A stretch of DNA of 29,897 nucleotides. Origin: a virus. The notes under the pieces were generated by a model. It had not been told where the DNA came from. It ran no database searches and saw only the letters and a program-made list of their open reading frames with translations. Made by a program: the position numbers and the translations under genes. The DNA lies in the UHGV virus genome UHGV-1792943. One strand, given 5' to 3'. Positions 11,384-28,150 of the stretch are shown in pieces; positions within the stretch are counted from its first letter, which is position 1, and the number at the start of each line of letters is the position of its first letter.

Positions 11384-11400
11384 GCTAAAAGCTAGCTTAA

Positions 11401-11410
11401 TTTTCTAACA
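11401..11410. promoter_or_regulatory. operator-like site (TTTTCTAACA, minus-orientation copy of TGTTAGAAAA)
   Basis: Member of a dispersed motif family with eight sites; about 170 nt upstream of the 11583 gene. Confidence 0.4.
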
Positions 11411-11497
11411 CAGTGTGTTTTTATACACTGTTGATCCGACGGCACGTGATCGAGTAGGATCGCGGTCACTGCTCCGGTAGCGACTGCCAAAAAAAGC

Positions 11498-11582: not shown

Positions 11583-12545
11583 GTGAGTATTTTAAATTCA
11601 GTTTCAGTTACTTTCAACACTTCTGAGTATAAAAACAACACTGAATACCACAAAAAAATCAAAGGTCATCAGTTGAGTTTTTTTGCTCGTCATAGCGGTT
11701 TTCTTTCCCCTTCACATAGCGCCATTATTGCCGAGTTCGCCAACCTGGCAGGAGCTACCGATGAATACATGATCCGTCGCTCATATGCGGATATGTCCGA
11801 GATTACAGGACGCAGTATTTCTACTGTGCGCCGGGCATTTGCCGAAGCGACGAAGTGCGGAATGCTTGTTAAGCAGCATCAGGTAGCGAATAACAATGCT
11901 CAGGTGTGTAACGTGTACCGGTTTACAACACAATTTCTCCACTTCATTCATGTAGCAATGGAGATAGGGAGTAAGCAGGGCATCAAATTTGCCAACGCCA
12001 CAAAACTGGTTAAGCAGTTGATTTCAAAGGTTCGTTATTTTTTTGAAACTGGGAACCCCCTGTTCAAATTGAACAAGTCCCCCCATGTTCAAAATGAACA
12101 GCCAATAGAAAATAAGAGTCACTCTATAGCCAAAAGAAGAGAAAGATCATGCGCGGTTCAGCCAAAGGCTTCACCAGCAGATAGTTCTCAAGCGGATAAT
12201 GGGGGGCTGGATAAAAAACCAGTAACCAGGGAAGAACATACCAACCACTGCCTGGCGGCGGCAAAAGCGAGAGCTGCAAAGCGTCGTTCAGATGAGGGGC
12301 ACGCAAAACGGCAGGCTCTGTATCGTACCGCTGAAAAGCTGGCAAAAAAATTTGCATGGATACGTAGTGCCGCTACAGCAGTGAATAAGCCTAAACAATC
12401 CAGTGCCCTGGATTTCTCAATGGATTATTCTGGCTCCCAGGGGTGTGCAACCATTGGTGAAGCCTTTGACCTGATGAAACAGCGTGGCTATCGGTCTGAA
12501 TTTGACCGGGAAGACTGGTCAATTCCGGAGGGCTTTCGGGGATGA
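11583..12545 (+). CDS. putative DNA-binding protein, possibly a replication initiator (RepL-like by context)
   Basis: GTG start, exact start uncertain. HTH-like segment MSEITGRSISTVRRAFAEA; basic C-terminal region; two 15-bp palindromes lie inside the coding sequence. Confidence 0.4.
   Translation: MSILNSVSVTFNTSEYKNNTEYHKKIKGHQLSFFARHSGFLSPSHSAIIAEFANLAGATDEYMIRRSYADMSEITGRSISTVRRAFAEATKCGMLVKQHQVANNNAQVCNVYRFTTQFLHFIHVAMEIGSKQGIKFANATKLVKQLISKVRYFFETGNPLFKLNKSPHVQNEQPIENKSHSIAKRRERSCAVQPKASPADSSQADNGGLDKKPVTREEHTNHCLAAAKARAAKRRSDEGHAKRQALYRTAEKLAKKFAWIRSAATAVNKPKQSSALDFSMDYSGSQGCATIGEAFDLMKQRGYRSEFDREDWSIPEGFRG
12061..12101. repeat. two near-identical 15-bp palindromes (TGTTCAAATTGAACA and TGTTCAAAATGAACA), each preceded by a C5-7 tract, inside the 11583-12545 CDS
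   Basis: Read directly at 12061-12075 and 12087-12101. Confidence 0.8.
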
Positions 12546-12602: not shown

Positions 12603-12631
12603 TGTTAGAAAATTAAATTGATGTTTCTAAT
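12603..12631. promoter_or_regulatory. operator-like inverted pair (TGTTAGAAAA, 11 nt, TTTCTAAT)
   Basis: Upstream of the immI-like module. Confidence 0.45.
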
Positions 12632-12684: not shown

Positions 12685-12698
12685 GTTGATCTTTCTAA
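12685..12698. promoter_or_regulatory. operator-like half site (TTGATCTTTCTAAT)
   Basis: Shares the TTGAT-N-TTTCTAAT core with the 12618-12631 half site. Confidence 0.4.
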
Positions 12699-12839
12699 TG
12701 TTCAGGCTTATATTCATGCCGTCGTAGCAAATTCTGCGACCGGGTTTAGCAGCCTGAATGTTAGTGCGGACAACCGCAGATATCCGATATTGCGGTATTT
12801 TTGTGTCCGTAAAACCGCGTTACGCCCAAATTATGGTGG

Positions 12840-12912
12840 GGCGTGATGGGGAGGCTTCGGCCTGCTGGTTTCACTAACGCCAGTCTGCTAACCCCGTCAC
12901 GTCCTGCCACCT
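12840..12912 (+). ncRNA. c4-like antisense regulatory RNA (boundaries approximate)
   Basis: Loops CACTAAC (12872-12878) and CTGCTAAC (12885-12892) are antiparallel complements of GTTTAGCAG and GTTAGTG. Those targets occur at 12746-12768 and again at 12913-12950, where GTTAGTG overlaps the SD of the downstream ORF. A UUCG tetraloop hairpin is present. Confidence 0.5.
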
Positions 12913-12961
12913 GTTTAGCAGCGGGTAGCAGGTTGTTAAACCTGTTAGTGAGGCCGTAACT

Positions 12962-13186
12962 ATGGTTAATGCCAATCCTTGCTCACGTCCAGAATTCATC
13001 TGGCGTTTTCACTCCCTGCAAAAACACTGCGATCACTTCGCAATTGCCGCAACTGAAAAAGAAGCCCGTTCTCTGATCCCTGATCAGTATGGCGTTCTCA
13101 CTGGTCGTTTCTCTACTTCCCCACAACCAAACACCAATCCCTGGTATCGCAATATTACCAATCCCGGCATTGCGGAGGCTCACTGA
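12962..13186 (+). CDS. icd: Icd-like small ORF translationally coupled to the antirepressor gene
   Basis: 74 aa; its SD is masked by the target repeat of the c4-like RNA; stop overlaps the ant start (TGATG). Architecture as in P1 immI. Confidence 0.5.
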   Translation: MVNANPCSRPEFIWRFHSLQKHCDHFAIAATEKEARSLIPDQYGVLTGRFSTSPQPNTNPWYRNITNPGIAEAH

Positions 13187-23156: not shown

Positions 23157-23165
23157 TGTTAGAAA
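23157..23165. promoter_or_regulatory. operator-like site (TGTTAGAAA)
   Basis: Immediately upstream of the 23170 start codon. Confidence 0.4.
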
Positions 23166-23169
23166 TTTG

Positions 23170-23613
23170 ATGCGAAGACGCAGGCATCATAGTGCGTATT
23201 CTGAAATATCCCCGCACGCTGCTGCACTGAGAGAGTTAGAAAGAAATCCTGACTTATTAAAACGGAATTACGAACATTACGAACAGGTTCGCGTTCTGGA
23301 TTGGCTGTATCGCAACATGCGATACGTGTATGAGCACACACACTCAACACCGAACGGCGGCCTGAGAGGCAAAAGGACAGCCATTAAGATGGTGGCAGAA
23401 GGTCAGAAGAAGGGCTATCCGGACCTTTCTATTGACCTTGCTCGTGGTGGGTATCACGGAATGCGCATTGAGATGAAGCACGGGAGAAACCGTCTGACTC
23501 CCGAACAGCTCGTCTGGATGACTCGCCTCACGGAAGCAGGCTATTACTGCTTTGAGGCGCGCAGTGCCGATGAAGCCATAAAAGCTATCACGGAATATGT
23601 AAATCTTGATTAA
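23170..23613 (+). CDS. VRR-NUC domain nuclease
   Basis: GYPDLSIDL ... IEMK ... LTPEQLVW pattern of a PD-(D/E)xK VRR-NUC fold. Confidence 0.6.
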   Translation: MRRRRHHSAYSEISPHAAALRELERNPDLLKRNYEHYEQVRVLDWLYRNMRYVYEHTHSTPNGGLRGKRTAIKMVAEGQKKGYPDLSIDLARGGYHGMRIEMKHGRNRLTPEQLVWMTRLTEAGYYCFEARSADEAIKAITEYVNLD

Positions 23614-23627
23614 ACGGAGAAATCGTT

Positions 23628-23828
23628 TTGCGTTTACTTAACGTGGCTGAACTTATCCCTGCCGGTGCTAACGTTGTTGCTCGTCGCTGCTCATGGCCTC
23701 ATTCTTTCTGTATAGAGCTTAAAAAGATGGATGATGGGGCATTAGAAGCCCGAAACATAGTTACCGGCGACAAGGTATGCATTACCCCGGAAAGCGCGAA
23801 AGCCAATGATTGGGAGTTTGTTCATTGA
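23628..23828 (+). CDS. small DUF2829 (Tad2)-like protein, 66 aa
   Basis: TTG start with SD GGAGA; VARRCSW and C-terminal ANDWEFV motifs shared with 13893-14090 and the C-terminus of 28603-29178. Confidence 0.4.
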   Translation: MRLLNVAELIPAGANVVARRCSWPHSFCIELKKMDDGALEARNIVTGDKVCITPESAKANDWEFVH

Positions 23829-23890
23829 GCAGAAAACACCACGTAAATCTGACGTTTGCTGATGACGCCGGAAGAACCAGAAGCATAACC

Positions 23891-24136
23891 ATGAAAGTTG
23901 CTTCCAGGAAAGTAACCGCGCCACTTATACGAGAGGCCGTAAGTGAACTTGATATGAGTGAGAATGCAGCTCTGTTATCGGTAAGCTGGCTGGGGAAAAT
24001 GACGGATCAGGAATACTCGGATGGTATACCCCACGGTGAGCGGCAGATAGTAAAGCGCGCGTTTAGAATTTCAGAGGTAGTTGTCGTACTGATAGCTTTG
24101 ATTTATATGGCATACATGCTACTCCAACACGTCTAA
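23891..24136 (+). CDS. small C-terminally membrane-anchored protein
   Basis: C-terminal hydrophobic helix VVVVLIALIYMAYMLL; start uncertain (track ORF begins at 23810). Confidence 0.35.
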   Translation: MKVASRKVTAPLIREAVSELDMSENAALLSVSWLGKMTDQEYSDGIPHGERQIVKRAFRISEVVVVLIALIYMAYMLLQHV

Positions 24137-24144
24137 ACGGTCAT

Positions 24145-24169
24145 AAACCCGCCAGTTGGCGGGTTTTTT
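24145..24169 (+). terminator. rho-independent terminator
   Basis: aacccgcc-agtt-ggcgggtt followed by TTTTTTG. Confidence 0.8.
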
Positions 24170-24211
24170 GTTGCCTGAGTCTTTTTATTGAAATTGCATA
24201 CTAATAAAATA

Positions 24212-24221
24212 TGTTAGAAAA
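24212..24221. promoter_or_regulatory. operator-like site (TGTTAGAAAA) within a promoter-like region
   Basis: TTGAAA, 16 nt, TATGTT arrangement overlaps the site; 25 nt upstream of the ATG at 24246. Confidence 0.45.
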
Positions 24222-24245
24222 CTAATTTCAAGAAAGGGAACAAAC

Positions 24246-25454
24246 ATGAGTCAGCAAGTAGAATCATCAAGCCTGGAGATCATCTCAACCGCAATTGAAA
24301 CGCTGCGGACACAAATCGCGCTTATACAGAAACGAAATCCGGGCGATGACCTGTCAAAGCGACTGCATGAGAGCGTCATTGCCACTACAGATAACCTGGT
24401 GGCGGAAATCAACCAGCTCCTTGATGATGGGGCAGTTGATTACAATAAGCTGGTGGATCAGTTTGAGGAATATCAGCAAGCCGTTAATGATGGCTTGATC
24501 CGTTTTTCTCAAGTCACTGGTGTATCAGCGACAGTTGAAAGCCTGGGGGATGCAGTTAATCAATTTGCCGCGAATATGCGTAATGAGATCGGCAATCTGG
24601 AGGCGCGTCTTGAGCAGGCAAATACACTGCGCAAATCTGCTGAAGTCGATTTGAGTCGTTACAAAAAAGACTATCCGCCAAGCCTGACAAAACGACTGGA
24701 TGTTGCGGAGAAAGATAACCGCACGCTGAAAAGAGAGCGTCGGGAACTAAAAGAGCGTTTAACCAAGCTAAATCAGCAATGCGTTGAGTATCAAGGCGAA
24801 CTCGTCACACTGCGTAAAAAGTTAGCAGCGGCGCAGAGCATTATTGAAACATTGAAACGAGAGTGCTCAGAGCTTGGTCATGATCTGAATCGCGCCTGTG
24901 GCATGGGGCAAAGGCCAGAGACATTCCCGCTAATGTATGACGGAAGAGAAGCTATTGCCTATATCCATGAGTTTCCGCATGGTCTGGTCGCGGAGACTGG
25001 GCAACGTGGCGAAGCGTTGCTGACGGCAAATTACCATCAGCAAATCAGAACCAGCCGCCTGCTGACGATGGATGTGATCCCGTCAGTATGGGGAACGCCG
25101 CTTTACTACCGAATTCCTGGCTTCGAAACTGACTGGAATACCGACATAGACGAATGTCTGGCAGATAAAATTATGGCGTACCTTGAAACGGATTTTCCAC
25201 GCTTGCATCGCCGGATTATGGACTCTAAGGATGCACCGATCGACGAATTGAAAATGCGTCCAGAGACGTTGGAGGCAATCAAGCAGACTGAGTTTGATAC
25301 AGTGTTCAGTGTGGCCTGCATTCCAAGCAGCTTTCATGAAAGCATTCCGTTCATGCAGGGCGATCGCCGTCAGGAAATAATTGATGCTTGCCGGGTATGG
25401 GCGAACGAGTGGGATAAGAAGAACGGTGGAGTTGAAAATCTTTACGGGAAATAA
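24246..25454 (+). CDS. hypothetical protein with N-terminal coiled coil (402 aa)
   Basis: Long ORF bracketed by a terminator and operator-like sites on both sides. Confidence 0.6.
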   Translation: MSQQVESSSLEIISTAIETLRTQIALIQKRNPGDDLSKRLHESVIATTDNLVAEINQLLDDGAVDYNKLVDQFEEYQQAVNDGLIRFSQVTGVSATVESLGDAVNQFAANMRNEIGNLEARLEQANTLRKSAEVDLSRYKKDYPPSLTKRLDVAEKDNRTLKRERRELKERLTKLNQQCVEYQGELVTLRKKLAAAQSIIETLKRECSELGHDLNRACGMGQRPETFPLMYDGREAIAYIHEFPHGLVAETGQRGEALLTANYHQQIRTSRLLTMDVIPSVWGTPLYYRIPGFETDWNTDIDECLADKIMAYLETDFPRLHRRIMDSKDAPIDELKMRPETLEAIKQTEFDTVFSVACIPSSFHESIPFMQGDRRQEIIDACRVWANEWDKKNGGVENLYGK

Positions 25455-25456
25455 TG

Positions 25457-25485
25457 TGTTAGAAAATTAAAATTGTTTTTCTAAC
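25457..25485. promoter_or_regulatory. operator-like perfect inverted repeat (TGTTAGAAAA, 9 nt, TTTTCTAACA)
   Basis: Read directly; the best palindromic copy of the motif family. Confidence 0.5.
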
Positions 25486-25607
25486 ATATTGATTATGTAG
25501 TTAACTTAACATAGAATTTTTCGTGCTGGTGGGGAGCTTCCCATGTCGCTTGCGGGTTTGATAGTCACTTCATTGTCTTTCCCCACCAGCATCAAACAAT
25601 TTTAAGT

Positions 25608-25617
25608 GTTAGAAAGT
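25608..25617. promoter_or_regulatory. operator-like site (TGTTAGAAAG)
   Basis: Member of the same family. Confidence 0.35.
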
Positions 25618-26799: not shown

Positions 26800-26876
26800 G
26801 ATGGTGTAGCTCAGTAGGATAGAGCAGCAGCCTTCTAAGCTGTCGGTCGGTGGTTCGAATCCACCCACCATCGCCA
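26800..26876 (+). tRNA. tRNA-Arg (anticodon TCT)
   Basis: Full cloverleaf folded by hand: acceptor gatggtg / caccatc, anticodon loop cttctaa, T-loop ttcgaat, encoded CCA. Confidence 0.8.
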
Positions 26877-26882
26877 ATTTAG

Positions 26883-26968
26883 GGGAGTTAGTCCGTAGGG
26901 GTAGCGGGGTAGACTGTAAATCTACTGTCATTGCGACTCGGATGGTTCGACTCCATCACTCCCCACCA
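26883..26968 (+). tRNA. tRNA-Tyr-like (anticodon GTA), long variable arm, slightly irregular D-arm
   Basis: Acceptor ggggagt / actcccc, anticodon stem gtaga / tctac with loop ctgtaaa, 15-nt variable arm, T-loop ttcgact, CCA. Confidence 0.5.
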
Positions 26969-26972
26969 AATT

Positions 26973-27048
26973 GCCGGTTTAGCTCAGTTGGTAGAGCGCC
27001 TGCCTTGTAAGCAGGATGTCAGCGGTTCGAGTCCGTTAACCGGCACCA
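26973..27048 (+). tRNA. tRNA-Thr (anticodon TGT)
   Basis: Acceptor gccggtt / aaccggc, anticodon loop cttgtaa, T-loop ttcgagt, CCA. Confidence 0.8.
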
Positions 27049-28074: not shown

Positions 28075-28150
28075 GGCCCTTTAGCTCAGTGGTTAGAGCG
28101 GGCGACTCATAATCGCACGGTCACCGGTTCAAGTCCGGTAGGGGCCACCA
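28075..28150 (+). tRNA. tRNA-Ile2 (anticodon CAT, lysidine type)
   Basis: Near-identical to the enterobacterial ileX-type tRNA as recalled: acceptor ggccctt / aggggcc, anticodon loop ctcataa, T-loop ttcaagt, CCA. Confidence 0.8.

What the first reader, a model, noticed from the sequence alone, without database searches (positions are those of the whole stretch)
12045..12105. Two tandem 15-bp palindromes with C-tracts inside the coding sequence of the putative RepL-like gene
TGTTCAAATTGAACA and TGTTCAAAATGAACA, each preceded by CCCCC(C), sit 11 nt apart within the ORF. Such strong symmetric sites inside a gene are unlikely by chance and resemble an origin or protein binding site embedded in a rep gene, as described for the P1 lytic origin within repL (from memory).
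Basis: partly seen in the sequence, partly recalled or inferred. Interest (0 to 1): 0.45.

Follow-up and report, generated by a model that had tools for sequence, protein, structure and literature searches.

The report
Lytic origin dyads inside repL
Two matching 15-bp palindromes inside the replication-initiator gene (repL) of a D6/P1-type phage-plasmid are most likely where that initiator docks on the phage's lytic replication origin; an origin inside its own initiator gene is a known arrangement, but I found no description of the binding sites in the literature I could reach.

Summary
TGTTCAAATTGAACA (12061-12075) and TGTTCAAAATGAACA (12086-12100), each preceded by a C5/C6 run, are the only TGTTCA-N3-TGAACA sites in the window and in the whole 91-kb phage D6 genome.

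- **Gene:** the host ORF (11583-12545) is the D6-type homologue of P1 RepL (28% identity, E 1e-28).
- **Position:** the dyads lie where the gene encodes a predicted disordered linker, just after a winged-helix domain. A purine/A-rich, easily melted tract follows.
- **P1 counterpart:** P1 repL has the same layout at the aligned position. It falls inside the 88-bp fragment that was enough for RepL-driven amplification in trans in a published experiment.
- **Conservation:** all seven RepL clades examined carry the core TCA-N3-TGA 24-25 bp apart in the linker. Two copies are usual; one variant has a single unit and one a degenerate second copy. The outer arm bases differ by clade.
- **DNA-level selection:** the arms are invariant while the spacers, neighbouring synonymous sites and even the encoded amino acids change. 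In the window the two copies sit in different reading frames.

Best reading: these are RepL-binding dyads of the lytic origin (oriL), next to its unwinding element. This is a new member of a known kind. It also gives a testable candidate for the uncharacterised RepL recognition site. Binding and origin activity are inferred, not shown.

The parts
11583..12545 (+). repL-type lytic replication initiator gene (320 aa) that contains the element.
   Evidence: 94% nucleotide identity to phage D6 orf20, annotated 'lytic replication protein, similar to P1 repL'. BLASTP against P1 RepL: 28% identity, E 1e-28. Near-identical homologues carry PF26868 Phage_P1_RepL.
11637..12053 (+). Coding region for the N-terminal winged-helix DNA-binding domain (aa 19-157).
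   Evidence: The AlphaFold2 model is confident in this region, with an H-E-H-H-E-E winged-helix topology. Weak Pfam HTH_36 hit. Foldseek gives only generic MarR/ArsR/TFE-type winged-helix matches.
12033..12050 (+). T-rich tract upstream of the dyads; positional counterpart of P1 AT1.
   Evidence: CGTTATTTTTTTGAAACT. Conserved with one change in E. fergusonii. It aligns with P1 AT1. In P1, recoding AT1 had no effect (PMC9948254).
12056..12075 (.). Unit 1: C5 run plus dyad TGTTCA-AAT-TGAACA (core TCA-N3-TGA). Distal from the A-rich tract.
   Evidence: Arms invariant in 23 distinct D6-clade sequences, while the spacer varies: AAT, AAA or TTT.
12079..12100 (.). Unit 2: C6 run plus dyad TGTTCA-AAA-TGAACA. 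Proximal to the A-rich tract; counterpart of the single dyad kept in the P1 minimal T5 fragment.
   Evidence: It is in a different reading frame from unit 1, because the spacing is 25 bp.
12101..12150 (+). Purine/A-rich tract with low duplex stability, ending in a GATC (12145-12148). Candidate DNA-unwinding element; counterpart of P1 AT2.
   Evidence: 68% A+T and 68-70% purine; 98th percentile of helix instability in the window. It aligns with P1 AT2, and the A-run before the GATC is invariant across 8 clade representatives. AT2 is essential in P1.
12126..12170 (+). Block with the strongest synonymous-site conservation in the gene; probably the right-hand part of the origin.
   Evidence: 15 of 15 third codon positions are identical between the window and E. 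fergusonii, against 48% gene-wide.
12066..12227 (+). Coding region for the predicted disordered inter-domain linker (aa 162-215), which houses the origin elements.
   Evidence: pLDDT below 50 for residues 162-215. This is the most variable part of the family protein alignment.
11393..11412 (+). Repressor-operator-like site (TTAATTTTCTAACACAG) upstream of repL. It may make the replicon repressor-controlled, as Op53 does in P1.
   Evidence: The TTTCTAAY motif occurs 13 times against 2.3 expected, mostly in intergenic regions. This copy is conserved in D6 and E. fergusonii. The function is inferred only.

Best explanation
The two palindromes are the initiator-recognition dyads of the lytic replication origin (oriL) of a D6-like, P1-family phage-plasmid. 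The origin is built into the repL gene, in the stretch that encodes a disordered linker between RepL's winged-helix domain and its C-terminal helical domain.

Proposed mechanism:
1. After derepression, RepL is made.
2. RepL binds as a dimer to each TGTTCA-N3-TGAACA dyad. The half-site centres are 9 bp apart, so both lie on one face of the helix.
3. The two units sit 25 bp apart, directly next to a roughly 50-bp purine/A-rich tract.
4. RepL binding, probably helped by transcription through repL, opens that tract, and the host replisome is loaded.
5. The dyad next to the A-rich tract (12086-12100) is probably the essential one. The distal dyad probably adds cooperativity.

Shown here: the sequence anatomy; non-randomness; uniqueness in the genome; positional homology to the functional P1 fragment; DNA-level purifying selection on the arms; family-wide conservation of the TCA-N3-TGA core with clade-specific outer bases.

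Inferred: RepL is the protein that binds; the A-rich tract melts; the host helicase is loaded.
For: 1. **Gene identity.** The ORF is a D6 repL homologue of P1 RepL (PF26868).

2. **Same architecture in P1.** At the aligned place, P1 repL reads: T-rich AT1, then CCCCC-A-TGTCAAAATGATA, then CCCCCTCCCCC-TGTCAGGATGACG, then A-rich AT2.

3. **Published P1 experiments** (PMC9948254):
- Synonymous recoding of AT2 abolishes RepL-driven amplification.
- Mutating AT1 or the DnaA boxes has no effect.
- The 88-bp T5 fragment, made of the second C-run + dyad + AT2, works in trans.
- The authors state that the RepL binding site is unknown and that the C/G-rich sequence before AT2 was not tested.

4. **Selection acts on the DNA, not the protein.**
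- D6 clade: arms 0/24 variable against 360/933 elsewhere (p=1.5e-5); third codon positions 0/8 against 195/311 (p=4.5e-4).
- Enterobacter clade: arms 3/28 against 452/818 (p=2e-6); third positions 2/10 against 227/272 (p=3e-5).
- P1 plus its sister clade: arms 4/20 against 435/751 (p=9e-4) (all).
- Spacers and the amino acids they encode change freely.
- The two copies are read in different frames (LFKLN and HVQNEQ).
- 100 of 117 plasmids have the 46-bp element 100% identical, whereas only 35 of 111 are at least 95% identical over the 1.3-kb region.

5. **Family-wide core.** All seven clades carry TCA-N3-TGA 24-25 bp apart in the linker, usually twice, and these are almost the only occurrences in each gene. 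The exceptions are L093, with a single unit, and L092, whose second copy has one core mismatch. Clade-specific arms:
- TGTTCA (D6 clade)
- TGTCA/TATCA (P1)
- CTGATCA (Enterobacter clade)
- GATCA (L200)
- CTGCTCA (L201)
- TGTCA/TGATCA (L202)

The core bases are the invariant columns of the cross-clade DNA alignment.

6. **Uniqueness.** These are the only such sites in the 91-kb D6 genome.

7. **Protein.** The predicted N-domain is a winged helix, of the kind that as a dimer typically reads dyads. The origin-coding part of the gene is the disordered linker.
Against: - There is no binding or replication experiment for any D6-type element.
- In P1 the minimal fragment lacks the first dyad, and a natural variant (L093) has one unit only. 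So two dyads are not strictly needed.
- In P1 the dyads are not sufficient: AT2 recoding with intact dyads kills activity.
- No P1 construct removed the dyads while keeping AT2, so even in P1 their requirement is untested.
- The putative recognition helix (S-T-V-R/V-R-A-F) is nearly invariant across clades whose outer arm bases differ. The specificity determinants are therefore unexplained.
- The two dyads can also pair with each other. In several genomes their spacers are mutually complementary, which hints at a structural (hairpin) role or a mutational artefact.
- There is no GC-skew switch and no DnaA box at the site.
- The IHF-like core at 12011-12023 is not conserved.
Confidence: 0.72

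Rival explanations
1. The functional unit is a nucleic-acid structure rather than a duplex protein site. Because both dyads have the same arms, the pair can extrude as one long hairpin or cruciform in unwound DNA, for example as a priming or helicase-loading signal. It could also fold in the repL mRNA and affect translation or stability.
For: - The RNA fold of 12040-12115 pairs dyad 1 with dyad 2: -16.7 kcal/mol, z -3.9, 0 of 200 shuffles as stable.
- In the Enterobacter clade the spacers of dyads 1 and 2 are reverse complements in 3 of 5 sequences: CCC/GGG, and GCA/TGC twice.
- A D6-like variant (L021) changed AAT to TTT, which makes its spacer complementary to the AAA of dyad 2.
Against: - Any two identical palindromes pair with each other trivially, so the fold energy is not independent evidence.
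- Spacers are not complementary in the window, D6, E. fergusonii, P1, clade D, L004, L092 or L201.
- The single-dyad P1 T5 fragment and the one-unit natural variant L093 cannot form the long hairpin.
- Complementary spacers are what quasi-palindrome template switching would produce without any selection (established mutational mechanism, from memory).
- There is no U-run or other RNA regulatory context, and no Rfam match.
Confidence: 0.12
2. The dyads are bound by a protein other than RepL. This could be a host factor or another phage regulator. Alternatively RepL binds them only as an autoregulatory roadblock inside its own gene, and origin recognition happens in the A-rich tract.
For: - Nobody has shown what RepL binds. 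The P1 study could not tell whether RepL binds AT2 or the preceding sequence.
- Only AT2 mutations have been shown to matter in P1.
Against: - The arm sequence differs between clades that share the same host genus: P1 has TGTCA and D6 has TGTTCA, both in E. coli. It tracks the RepL clade, as expected for a cognate element-encoded protein rather than a host factor.
- The site is always inside repL, next to the essential A-rich tract, and is unique in the genome.
- The repressor-operator-like motif of this phage (TTTCTAAY) is unrelated.
Confidence: 0.1
3. The repeat is a by-product of a repeated peptide motif in the linker, or is simply chance.
For: In clades with 24-bp spacing the dyads do encode repeated peptides, such as PCQND/PCQDD in P1 and RSDxxDQ in the Enterobacter clade.
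Against: - In the window the spacing is 25 bp, so the two copies are in different frames and encode unrelated peptides.
- The nucleotide arms are more conserved than the amino acids they encode.
- The encoded region is predicted to be disordered.
- The chance expectation is negligible.
Confidence: 0.02

Closest known systems
Bacteriophage P1 lytic replicon (repL with internal oriL; minimal 88-bp 'T5' RepL target including AT2, Huan et al. 2023, PMC9948254)
   Same: - The initiator is homologous (28% identity, full length).
- The origin elements sit at the aligned position inside the gene.
- The order is the same: T-rich tract, two C-run + dyad units with a TCA-N3-TGA core, then a purine/A-rich tract ending at GATC.
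- There is a repressor-operator-like site upstream of the gene.
   Different: - Arm sequence is TGTTCA rather than TGTCA, and unit spacing is 25 bp rather than 24 bp.
- There is no DnaA box next to the dyads.
- There is no kilA upstream: repL follows the head protease gene and precedes c4-icd-ant.
- No rlf operon follows.
- The dyads themselves are not discussed in the one P1 origin study I could read; the older P1 papers were not available.
Phage lambda ori inside gene O (four dyad-symmetric O-binding iterons plus an A/T-rich, purine-biased tract in the linker-coding part of O)
   Same: - The origin is embedded in the initiator gene, at the inter-domain linker.
- The binding sites are short inverted repeats with C/G runs.
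- Directly downstream is a 40-50-bp purine/A-rich tract. Compare lambda ACAAAAGACACTATTACAAAAGAAAAAAGAAAAGAT with the window and clade B tracts.
- Transcription runs through the origin.
   Different: - There are two sites rather than four.
- No detectable homology to lambda O: hhalign probability below 1% and no Pfam Phage_rep_O hit. There is only a weak PHROG 'O-like' hit.
- No P-like helicase-loader gene lies downstream.
Iteron-type plasmid origins (Rep_3/RepA family, e.g. P1 oriR, F, pPS10)
   Same: Repeated initiator sites lie next to an A/T-rich unwinding element, and there are element-specific initiator-site pairs.
   Different: - Those origins have 3-7 direct 17-22-bp iterons bound by monomers of WH1-WH2 Rep proteins, and usually lie outside the coding sequence.
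- Here there are only two units, each a dyad.
- The protein has no Rep_3 signature.
MarR/GntR-type winged-helix dimers binding palindromic operators
   Same: The fold class of the RepL N-domain, and a dyad with half-site centres 9 bp apart.
   Different: Only a generic fold resemblance (Foldseek E above 3e-3). Those proteins are transcription factors, not initiators.

Membership tests
P1-type lytic replicon (oriL within repL) | Initiator homologous to P1 RepL | tested here: met
   tblastn against P1/P7 repL gives E 1e-15 to 1e-17 over 92% of the length. BLASTP gives E 1e-28. PF26868 Phage_P1_RepL is recorded on 98%-identical and more distant homologues. The local Pfam copy has no such model.
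P1-type lytic replicon (oriL within repL) | Cis-acting origin sequence located inside the repL coding sequence, corresponding to the P1 minimal RepL-responsive fragment | tested here: met
   The sequence counterpart of P1 T5 (C-run + dyad + AT2) is present at the aligned position. This is positional and sequence correspondence only.
P1-type lytic replicon (oriL within repL) | A/T-rich AT2-like element adjacent to the dyads | tested here: met
   12101-12150 has 68% A+T and lies in the 98th percentile of helix instability. It aligns to AT2.
P1-type lytic replicon (oriL within repL) | RepL-dependent replication of the fragment in trans or in cis | not testable with these tools
   This needs the plasmid-amplification assay of PMC9948254, or origin mapping.
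P1-type lytic replicon (oriL within repL) | Control by the C1 repressor through an operator at the replicon promoter (P53/Op53) | tested here: inconclusive
   An operator-like TTAATTTTCTAACA lies at 11393-11412 and is conserved. No convincing + strand promoter was found, and a hairpin lies between the operator and the gene.
Lambda-type ori-in-O origin | Initiator homologous to lambda O (Phage_rep_O) | tested here: not met
   No Pfam hit. hhalign probability 0.55%. Only PHROG 391 'O-like' at E 1e-7 and weak Foldseek similarity to a putative O protein.
Lambda-type ori-in-O origin | Several dyad-symmetric initiator sites plus an A/T-rich purine-biased tract in the linker-coding part of the initiator gene | tested here: met
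   Two dyads plus the tract lie in the predicted disordered linker. Compared directly with lambda ori.
Lambda-type ori-in-O origin | Downstream P-type helicase-loader gene | tested here: not met
   Downstream are the c4 RNA, icd and an anti-repressor.
Iteron plasmid origins (Rep_3) | Rep_3/WH1-WH2 initiator and at least 3 direct iterons | tested here: not met
   No Rep_3 hit. There are only two units, each palindromic.
Firmicute plasmid RepL (PF05732) | Match to the Pfam RepL model | tested here: not met
   No hit at E up to 1. The shared name is a coincidence.

The most novel reading that the evidence does not exclude
The two dyads may not be simple duplex operators. On unwinding they may extrude as one hairpin or cruciform that RepL or the host primosome recognises. 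That would make a structure-specific initiation signal built into a coding sequence.

The reverse-complementary spacers seen in several lineages would then be maintained by selection rather than by template switching. The clade-specific arms would insulate the lytic origins of co-resident P1-like and D6-like phage-plasmids from each other's initiators.
Probability: 0.12. Interest if true: 0.65.

Novelty: new member of a known kind. Interest (0 to 1): 0.45.

Why it matters
P1 oriL has been placed 'somewhere inside repL' since 1989. A 2023 study still states that its exact sequence and the RepL binding site are unknown.

The comparison here singles out a family-wide TCA-N3-TGA dyad pair next to the essential A-rich tract as the candidate recognition site. 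It also shows that the outer arm bases differ between clades. If that is confirmed, three things follow:
- It would define the P1/D6 lytic origin at nucleotide resolution.
- It would explain how related phage-plasmids in the same cell could keep their lytic origins separate.
- It would supply sets of potentially orthogonal RepL/origin pairs for the copy-number amplifiers already built from P1 RepL.

For annotation, it allows an oriL feature to be placed in D6-like plasmids. These are common in E. coli and Salmonella (over 100 PLSDB records), and the D6 GenBank record currently has no oriL feature.

Tried and rejected
- **Chance:** rejected. Single 6+3+6 palindromes are common, so only the identical twin arrangement carries weight.
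- **Peptide repeat:** rejected, because the two copies are in different frames and the arms are more conserved than the amino acids.
- **Homology to lambda O:** tested by hhalign and not supported.
- **Solved-structure relatives by sequence:** none; only E 0.2-1 noise and GntR-type HTH fragments.
- **Fold searches:** only generic winged-helix matches.
- **NCBIfam:** no model for this family.
- **DnaA boxes:** none near the element; one-mismatch hits are at the chance level.
- **IHF core at 12011-12023:** present, but not conserved in E. fergusonii and only weakly enriched.
- **GC skew:** no switch in the window.
- **Rfam:** nothing at the element.
- **More clades in IMG/VR or GTDB genomes:** scans returned only clades already seen.
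- **Older P1 papers** (Lobocka 2004; Hansen 1989; Sternberg & Cohen 1989; Cohen et al. 1996): one was looked up and is not held, and the others were not obtained. I cannot exclude that they noted these repeats in P1.
- **Long-range 14-nt inverted repeat inside repL:** not conserved, so set aside.

Full report
**What is in the sequence.** The window reads ...GGGAA CCCCC TGTTCAAATTGAACA AGT CCCCCC A TGTTCAAAATGAACA GCCAATAGAAAATAAGAG....
- Dyad 1 (12061-12075) is a perfect 7+1+7 palindrome.
- Dyad 2 (12086-12100) is 6+3+6.
- The arms are identical. C5 and C6 runs precede the dyads. Ten bases separate them, and the units start 25 bp apart. The repeat finder returns the same 20-nt unit.

**Chance.** One 6+3+6 palindrome means little: there are 13 in the window, and 21-32% of shuffled copies of the gene contain one. 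Two with the same twelve specified bases side by side is a different matter.
- The exact pattern occurs only here in the window.
- With the C-run included and up to 3 mismatches, there are 3 matches (the two units plus the reverse-strand reading of unit 1) against 0.16 expected, and no shuffle reaches this.
- In the complete 91-kb phage D6 genome even TTCA-N3-TGAA occurs only at these two sites.

**Context.** The window is a D6-like phage-plasmid.
- It is 94% identical to Escherichia phage D6 and up to 99.7% identical to E. coli plasmids.
- Gene order is portal, head protease, this ORF, then c4 RNA, icd and an anti-repressor.
- The ORF (11583-12545, 320 aa) is D6 orf20, annotated 'lytic replication protein, similar to P1 repL'.
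- The homology is remote but real: tblastn E 1e-15 to 1e-17 over 92% of the length, and BLASTP 28% identity, E 1e-28.
- Close and distant homologues carry the precomputed Pfam hit PF26868 Phage_P1_RepL.
- The family is small: 24 representatives at E up to 1e-10 among 1.84 billion.

**Protein anatomy.** An AlphaFold2 model built on 17 family members gives:
- a confident N-terminal winged-helix domain (aa 19-157);
- a low-confidence, presumably disordered linker (aa 162-215);
- a long C-terminal helix (aa 217-266).

The dyads encode L160-K165 and H168-Q173, at the start of the linker, and the A-rich tract encodes the next residues. Sequence and fold searches find only generic winged-helix relatives of MarR/GntR/TFE type and phage 'HTH' or putative O/DnaD-like proteins, none significant. 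A profile comparison with lambda O is negative. The PHROG 'replication initiation O-like' hit (E 1e-7) is the only hint of a deeper link.

**P1 has the same thing in the same place.** At the aligned position, P1 repL reads:
- TTGGCTTTATTTAATTTTTTATCC (AT1, containing a DnaA box);
- ACACCCCC A TGTCAAAATGATA;
- CCCCCTCCCCC TGTCAGGATGACG;
- TGGCAATAAAGAATAAGAAGTCACAAGTTAAAAAAACAAAAAGATC (AT2).

Huan, Brown and Wang 2023 (PMC9948254) report the following:
- The exact P1 oriL and the RepL binding site are unknown.
- Synonymous recoding of AT2 abolishes RepL-driven plasmid amplification.
- Recoding AT1 or either DnaA box does nothing.
- An 88-bp fragment, T5, suffices in trans.
- Their supplement gives T5 as ccccctccccctgtcaggatgacgtgg + AT2 + agtttccggcggtgccgg. 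That is the AT2-proximal C-run and dyad plus AT2, without the first dyad.
- They note a C/G-rich sequence before AT2 whose role was not tested. The paper never mentions a palindrome, dyad or iteron.

No later paper in the searchable library addresses RepL binding.

- *D6 clade.* Among 23 distinct sequences, including E. fergusonii-type genes at 64% protein identity, 373 of 960 columns vary. None of the 24 arm positions does. In the 12-sequence codon alignment the arms are 0/24 variable against 360/933 elsewhere (p=1.5e-5). Third codon positions are 0/8 against 195/311 (p=4.5e-4).
- *Spacers.* They do vary: AAT, AAA and TTT in dyad 1, and AAA and TGA in dyad 2. The amino-acid replacements between the window and E. 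fergusonii (L to M, K to N, H to R, Q to H, N to D) fall in and around the spacers.
- *Reading frame.* The units are 25 bp apart, so the two identical DNA dyads are read in different frames. The repeat therefore exists at the DNA level only.
- *Plasmids.* 100 of 117 plasmid records carry the 46-bp element unchanged, although only 35 of 111 are at least 95% identical over the surrounding 1.3 kb.
- *Other clades.* The Enterobacter-type clade gives arms 3/28 against 452/818 (p=2e-6), and third positions 2/10 against 227/272. P1 plus its sister clade gives arms 4/20 against 435/751 (p=9e-4).
- *Extent.* The strongest synonymous conservation in the D6 clade lies just downstream, at 12126-12170 (15 of 15 third positions). 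The constrained DNA therefore spans roughly 12005-12172.

**Family-wide pattern.** Every clade for which I could get DNA has the core TCA-N3-TGA 24-25 bp apart in the linker. Two copies are usual, and these are almost the only occurrences in each gene:
- D6 type: CCCCC-TGTTCA nnn TGAACA.
- P1: CCCCC-TGTCA nnn TGA(T/C)A. One P1-like variant has a G-to-A change that makes the first dyad perfect, TATCA-AAA-TGATA.
- P1 sister clade: CCCCCC-TGTCA aaa TGACA.
- Enterobacter-type clade: CGGT-CTGATCA nnn TGATCAG.
- Three remote clades: GATCA aat TGAT / GATCA aaa TGATC; CTGCTCA tgg TGAACAG twice; TGTCA aaa TGATC / TGATCA aag TGATC.

There are two exceptions. One natural variant (L093) has lost exactly one 24-bp unit. 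In L092 the second copy carries one core mismatch.

In an eight-clade DNA alignment the two TCA and two TGA triplets are invariant columns; the few others include a C before each dyad and scattered A positions, mostly in the downstream A-run. Linker peptides of still more remote homologues (xQN[DE] after prolines) look like the translated form of the same motif, but I have no DNA for them.

Arms that differ between clades living in the same hosts argue for a cognate, element-encoded binding protein rather than a host factor.

**Mechanism proposed.** The layout is a winged-helix initiator, dyads with half-site centres 9 bp apart, and an adjacent tract (12101-12150) that is 68% A+T, about 70% purine on the coding strand and in the 98th percentile of predicted helix instability. 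This is the lambda ori logic: dyad-symmetric O sites plus a purine/A-rich tract in the linker-coding part of O. Here it is realised with a different protein family and only two sites.

I therefore propose that RepL dimers bind the dyads and open the A-rich tract, with transcription of repL passing through it, and that the host replisome is then loaded. The binding, the melting and the loading are all inferences. The D6 record as annotated shows no ban-type helicase gene, so the host DnaB would be used; this is also an inference.

**Weak points and rivals.**
- The dyads are neither shown to be necessary (no P1 construct lacks them while keeping AT2) nor sufficient (AT2 recoding alone kills function).
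- One dyad is enough in the P1 assay.
- The putative recognition helix is nearly invariant although the outer arm bases differ.
- The two dyads can pair with each other. In three of five Enterobacter-clade sequences and in one D6-like variant the two spacers are reverse complements. This may reflect selection for a larger hairpin, or quasi-palindrome template switching. I rate a structure-based role at about 0.12.
- Binding by some other protein is unlikely, given the clade-specific arms.
- A peptide-repeat or chance origin is effectively excluded.

**Verdict.** This is the D6-type version of the P1 lytic origin inside repL, so a new member of a known kind. The useful extra is that comparative analysis points to the TCA-N3-TGA dyads as the uncharacterised RepL recognition element across the whole family. 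That is directly testable with existing assays.

Noticed in passing
window 11393-11412, 12604-12631, 12692-12699, and 23158-25615, 29580 etc.: The motif TTTCTAAY occurs 13 times against 2.3 expected. Its extended consensus is about AAATTAATTTTCTAACAYA, mostly in intergenic regions. It is probably the C1-type repressor operator of D6-like phages (compare P1 ATTGCTCTAATAAATTT, from memory). One copy sits upstream of repL and three sit upstream of c4.
   Followed up: partly
window 11617-11589 (- strand promoter-like) and 11522-11497 (- strand terminator hairpin + T7): A strong sigma-70-like match (TTGAAA-17-TAAAAT, 10 of 12) inside the first codons of repL points leftwards. About 60 bp downstream of it lies a minus-strand terminator. 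Together they would give a roughly 90-nt RNA antisense to the repL start and leader, reminiscent of the P1 P53as/PaskilA antisense RNA annotated in AF234172. Both hexamers and the hairpin are conserved in D6 and E. fergusonii, but the hexamers lie in coding sequence.
   Followed up: partly
window 12708-12760 and 12829-12914: Rfam finds the a1/b1 targets of the C4 antisense RNA and the C4 RNA itself. The immI-type immunity operon (c4-icd-anti-repressor) therefore lies directly downstream of repL. This gene order differs from P1, where c4-icd-ant-kilA precede repL.
   Followed up: no
window 12163-12176 and 12455-12468: A perfect 14-nt long-range inverted repeat inside repL (CAAAGGCTTCACCA / TGGTGAAGCCTTTG), 278 nt apart. 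By my arithmetic about 0.004 would be expected in 1.5 kb. It is present in D6 but not conserved in E. fergusonii. Unexplained, possibly chance.
   Followed up: partly
L005 3434-3474, L007, L033, L200, L202 (linker of remote repL genes): In several clades the RepL dyads are built from TGATCA/GATCA, so each origin carries up to four GATC (Dam) sites. The hexamer is the same as the TGATCA/G repeats of the P1 pac site (from memory). This may mean Dam-sensitive initiator binding in those clades. The window's dyads have no GATC, but its A-rich tract ends in one (12145-12148).
   Followed up: no
L093 1972-1995 versus L091 1972-2019: A natural RepL gene with exactly one dyad unit. It shows a clean 24-bp (8-codon) deletion between the two repeats. 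This parallels the single-dyad minimal P1 fragment.
   Followed up: partly
window 13073-13087: CTGATC-CCT-GATCAG palindrome upstream of the anti-repressor ORF. It superficially resembles the Enterobacter-clade RepL dyad but has different spacing. Untested, possibly chance.
   Followed up: no
window 26800-27045 and 28075-28147: Four tRNA genes. The D6 record annotates three tRNAs in its corresponding region.
   Followed up: no
window 11407-11433: A conserved inverted repeat, CAGTGT..ACACTG, directly follows the operator-like site upstream of repL. It is conserved in D6 and E. fergusonii. It may be part of the repL promoter or operator region.
   Followed up: no
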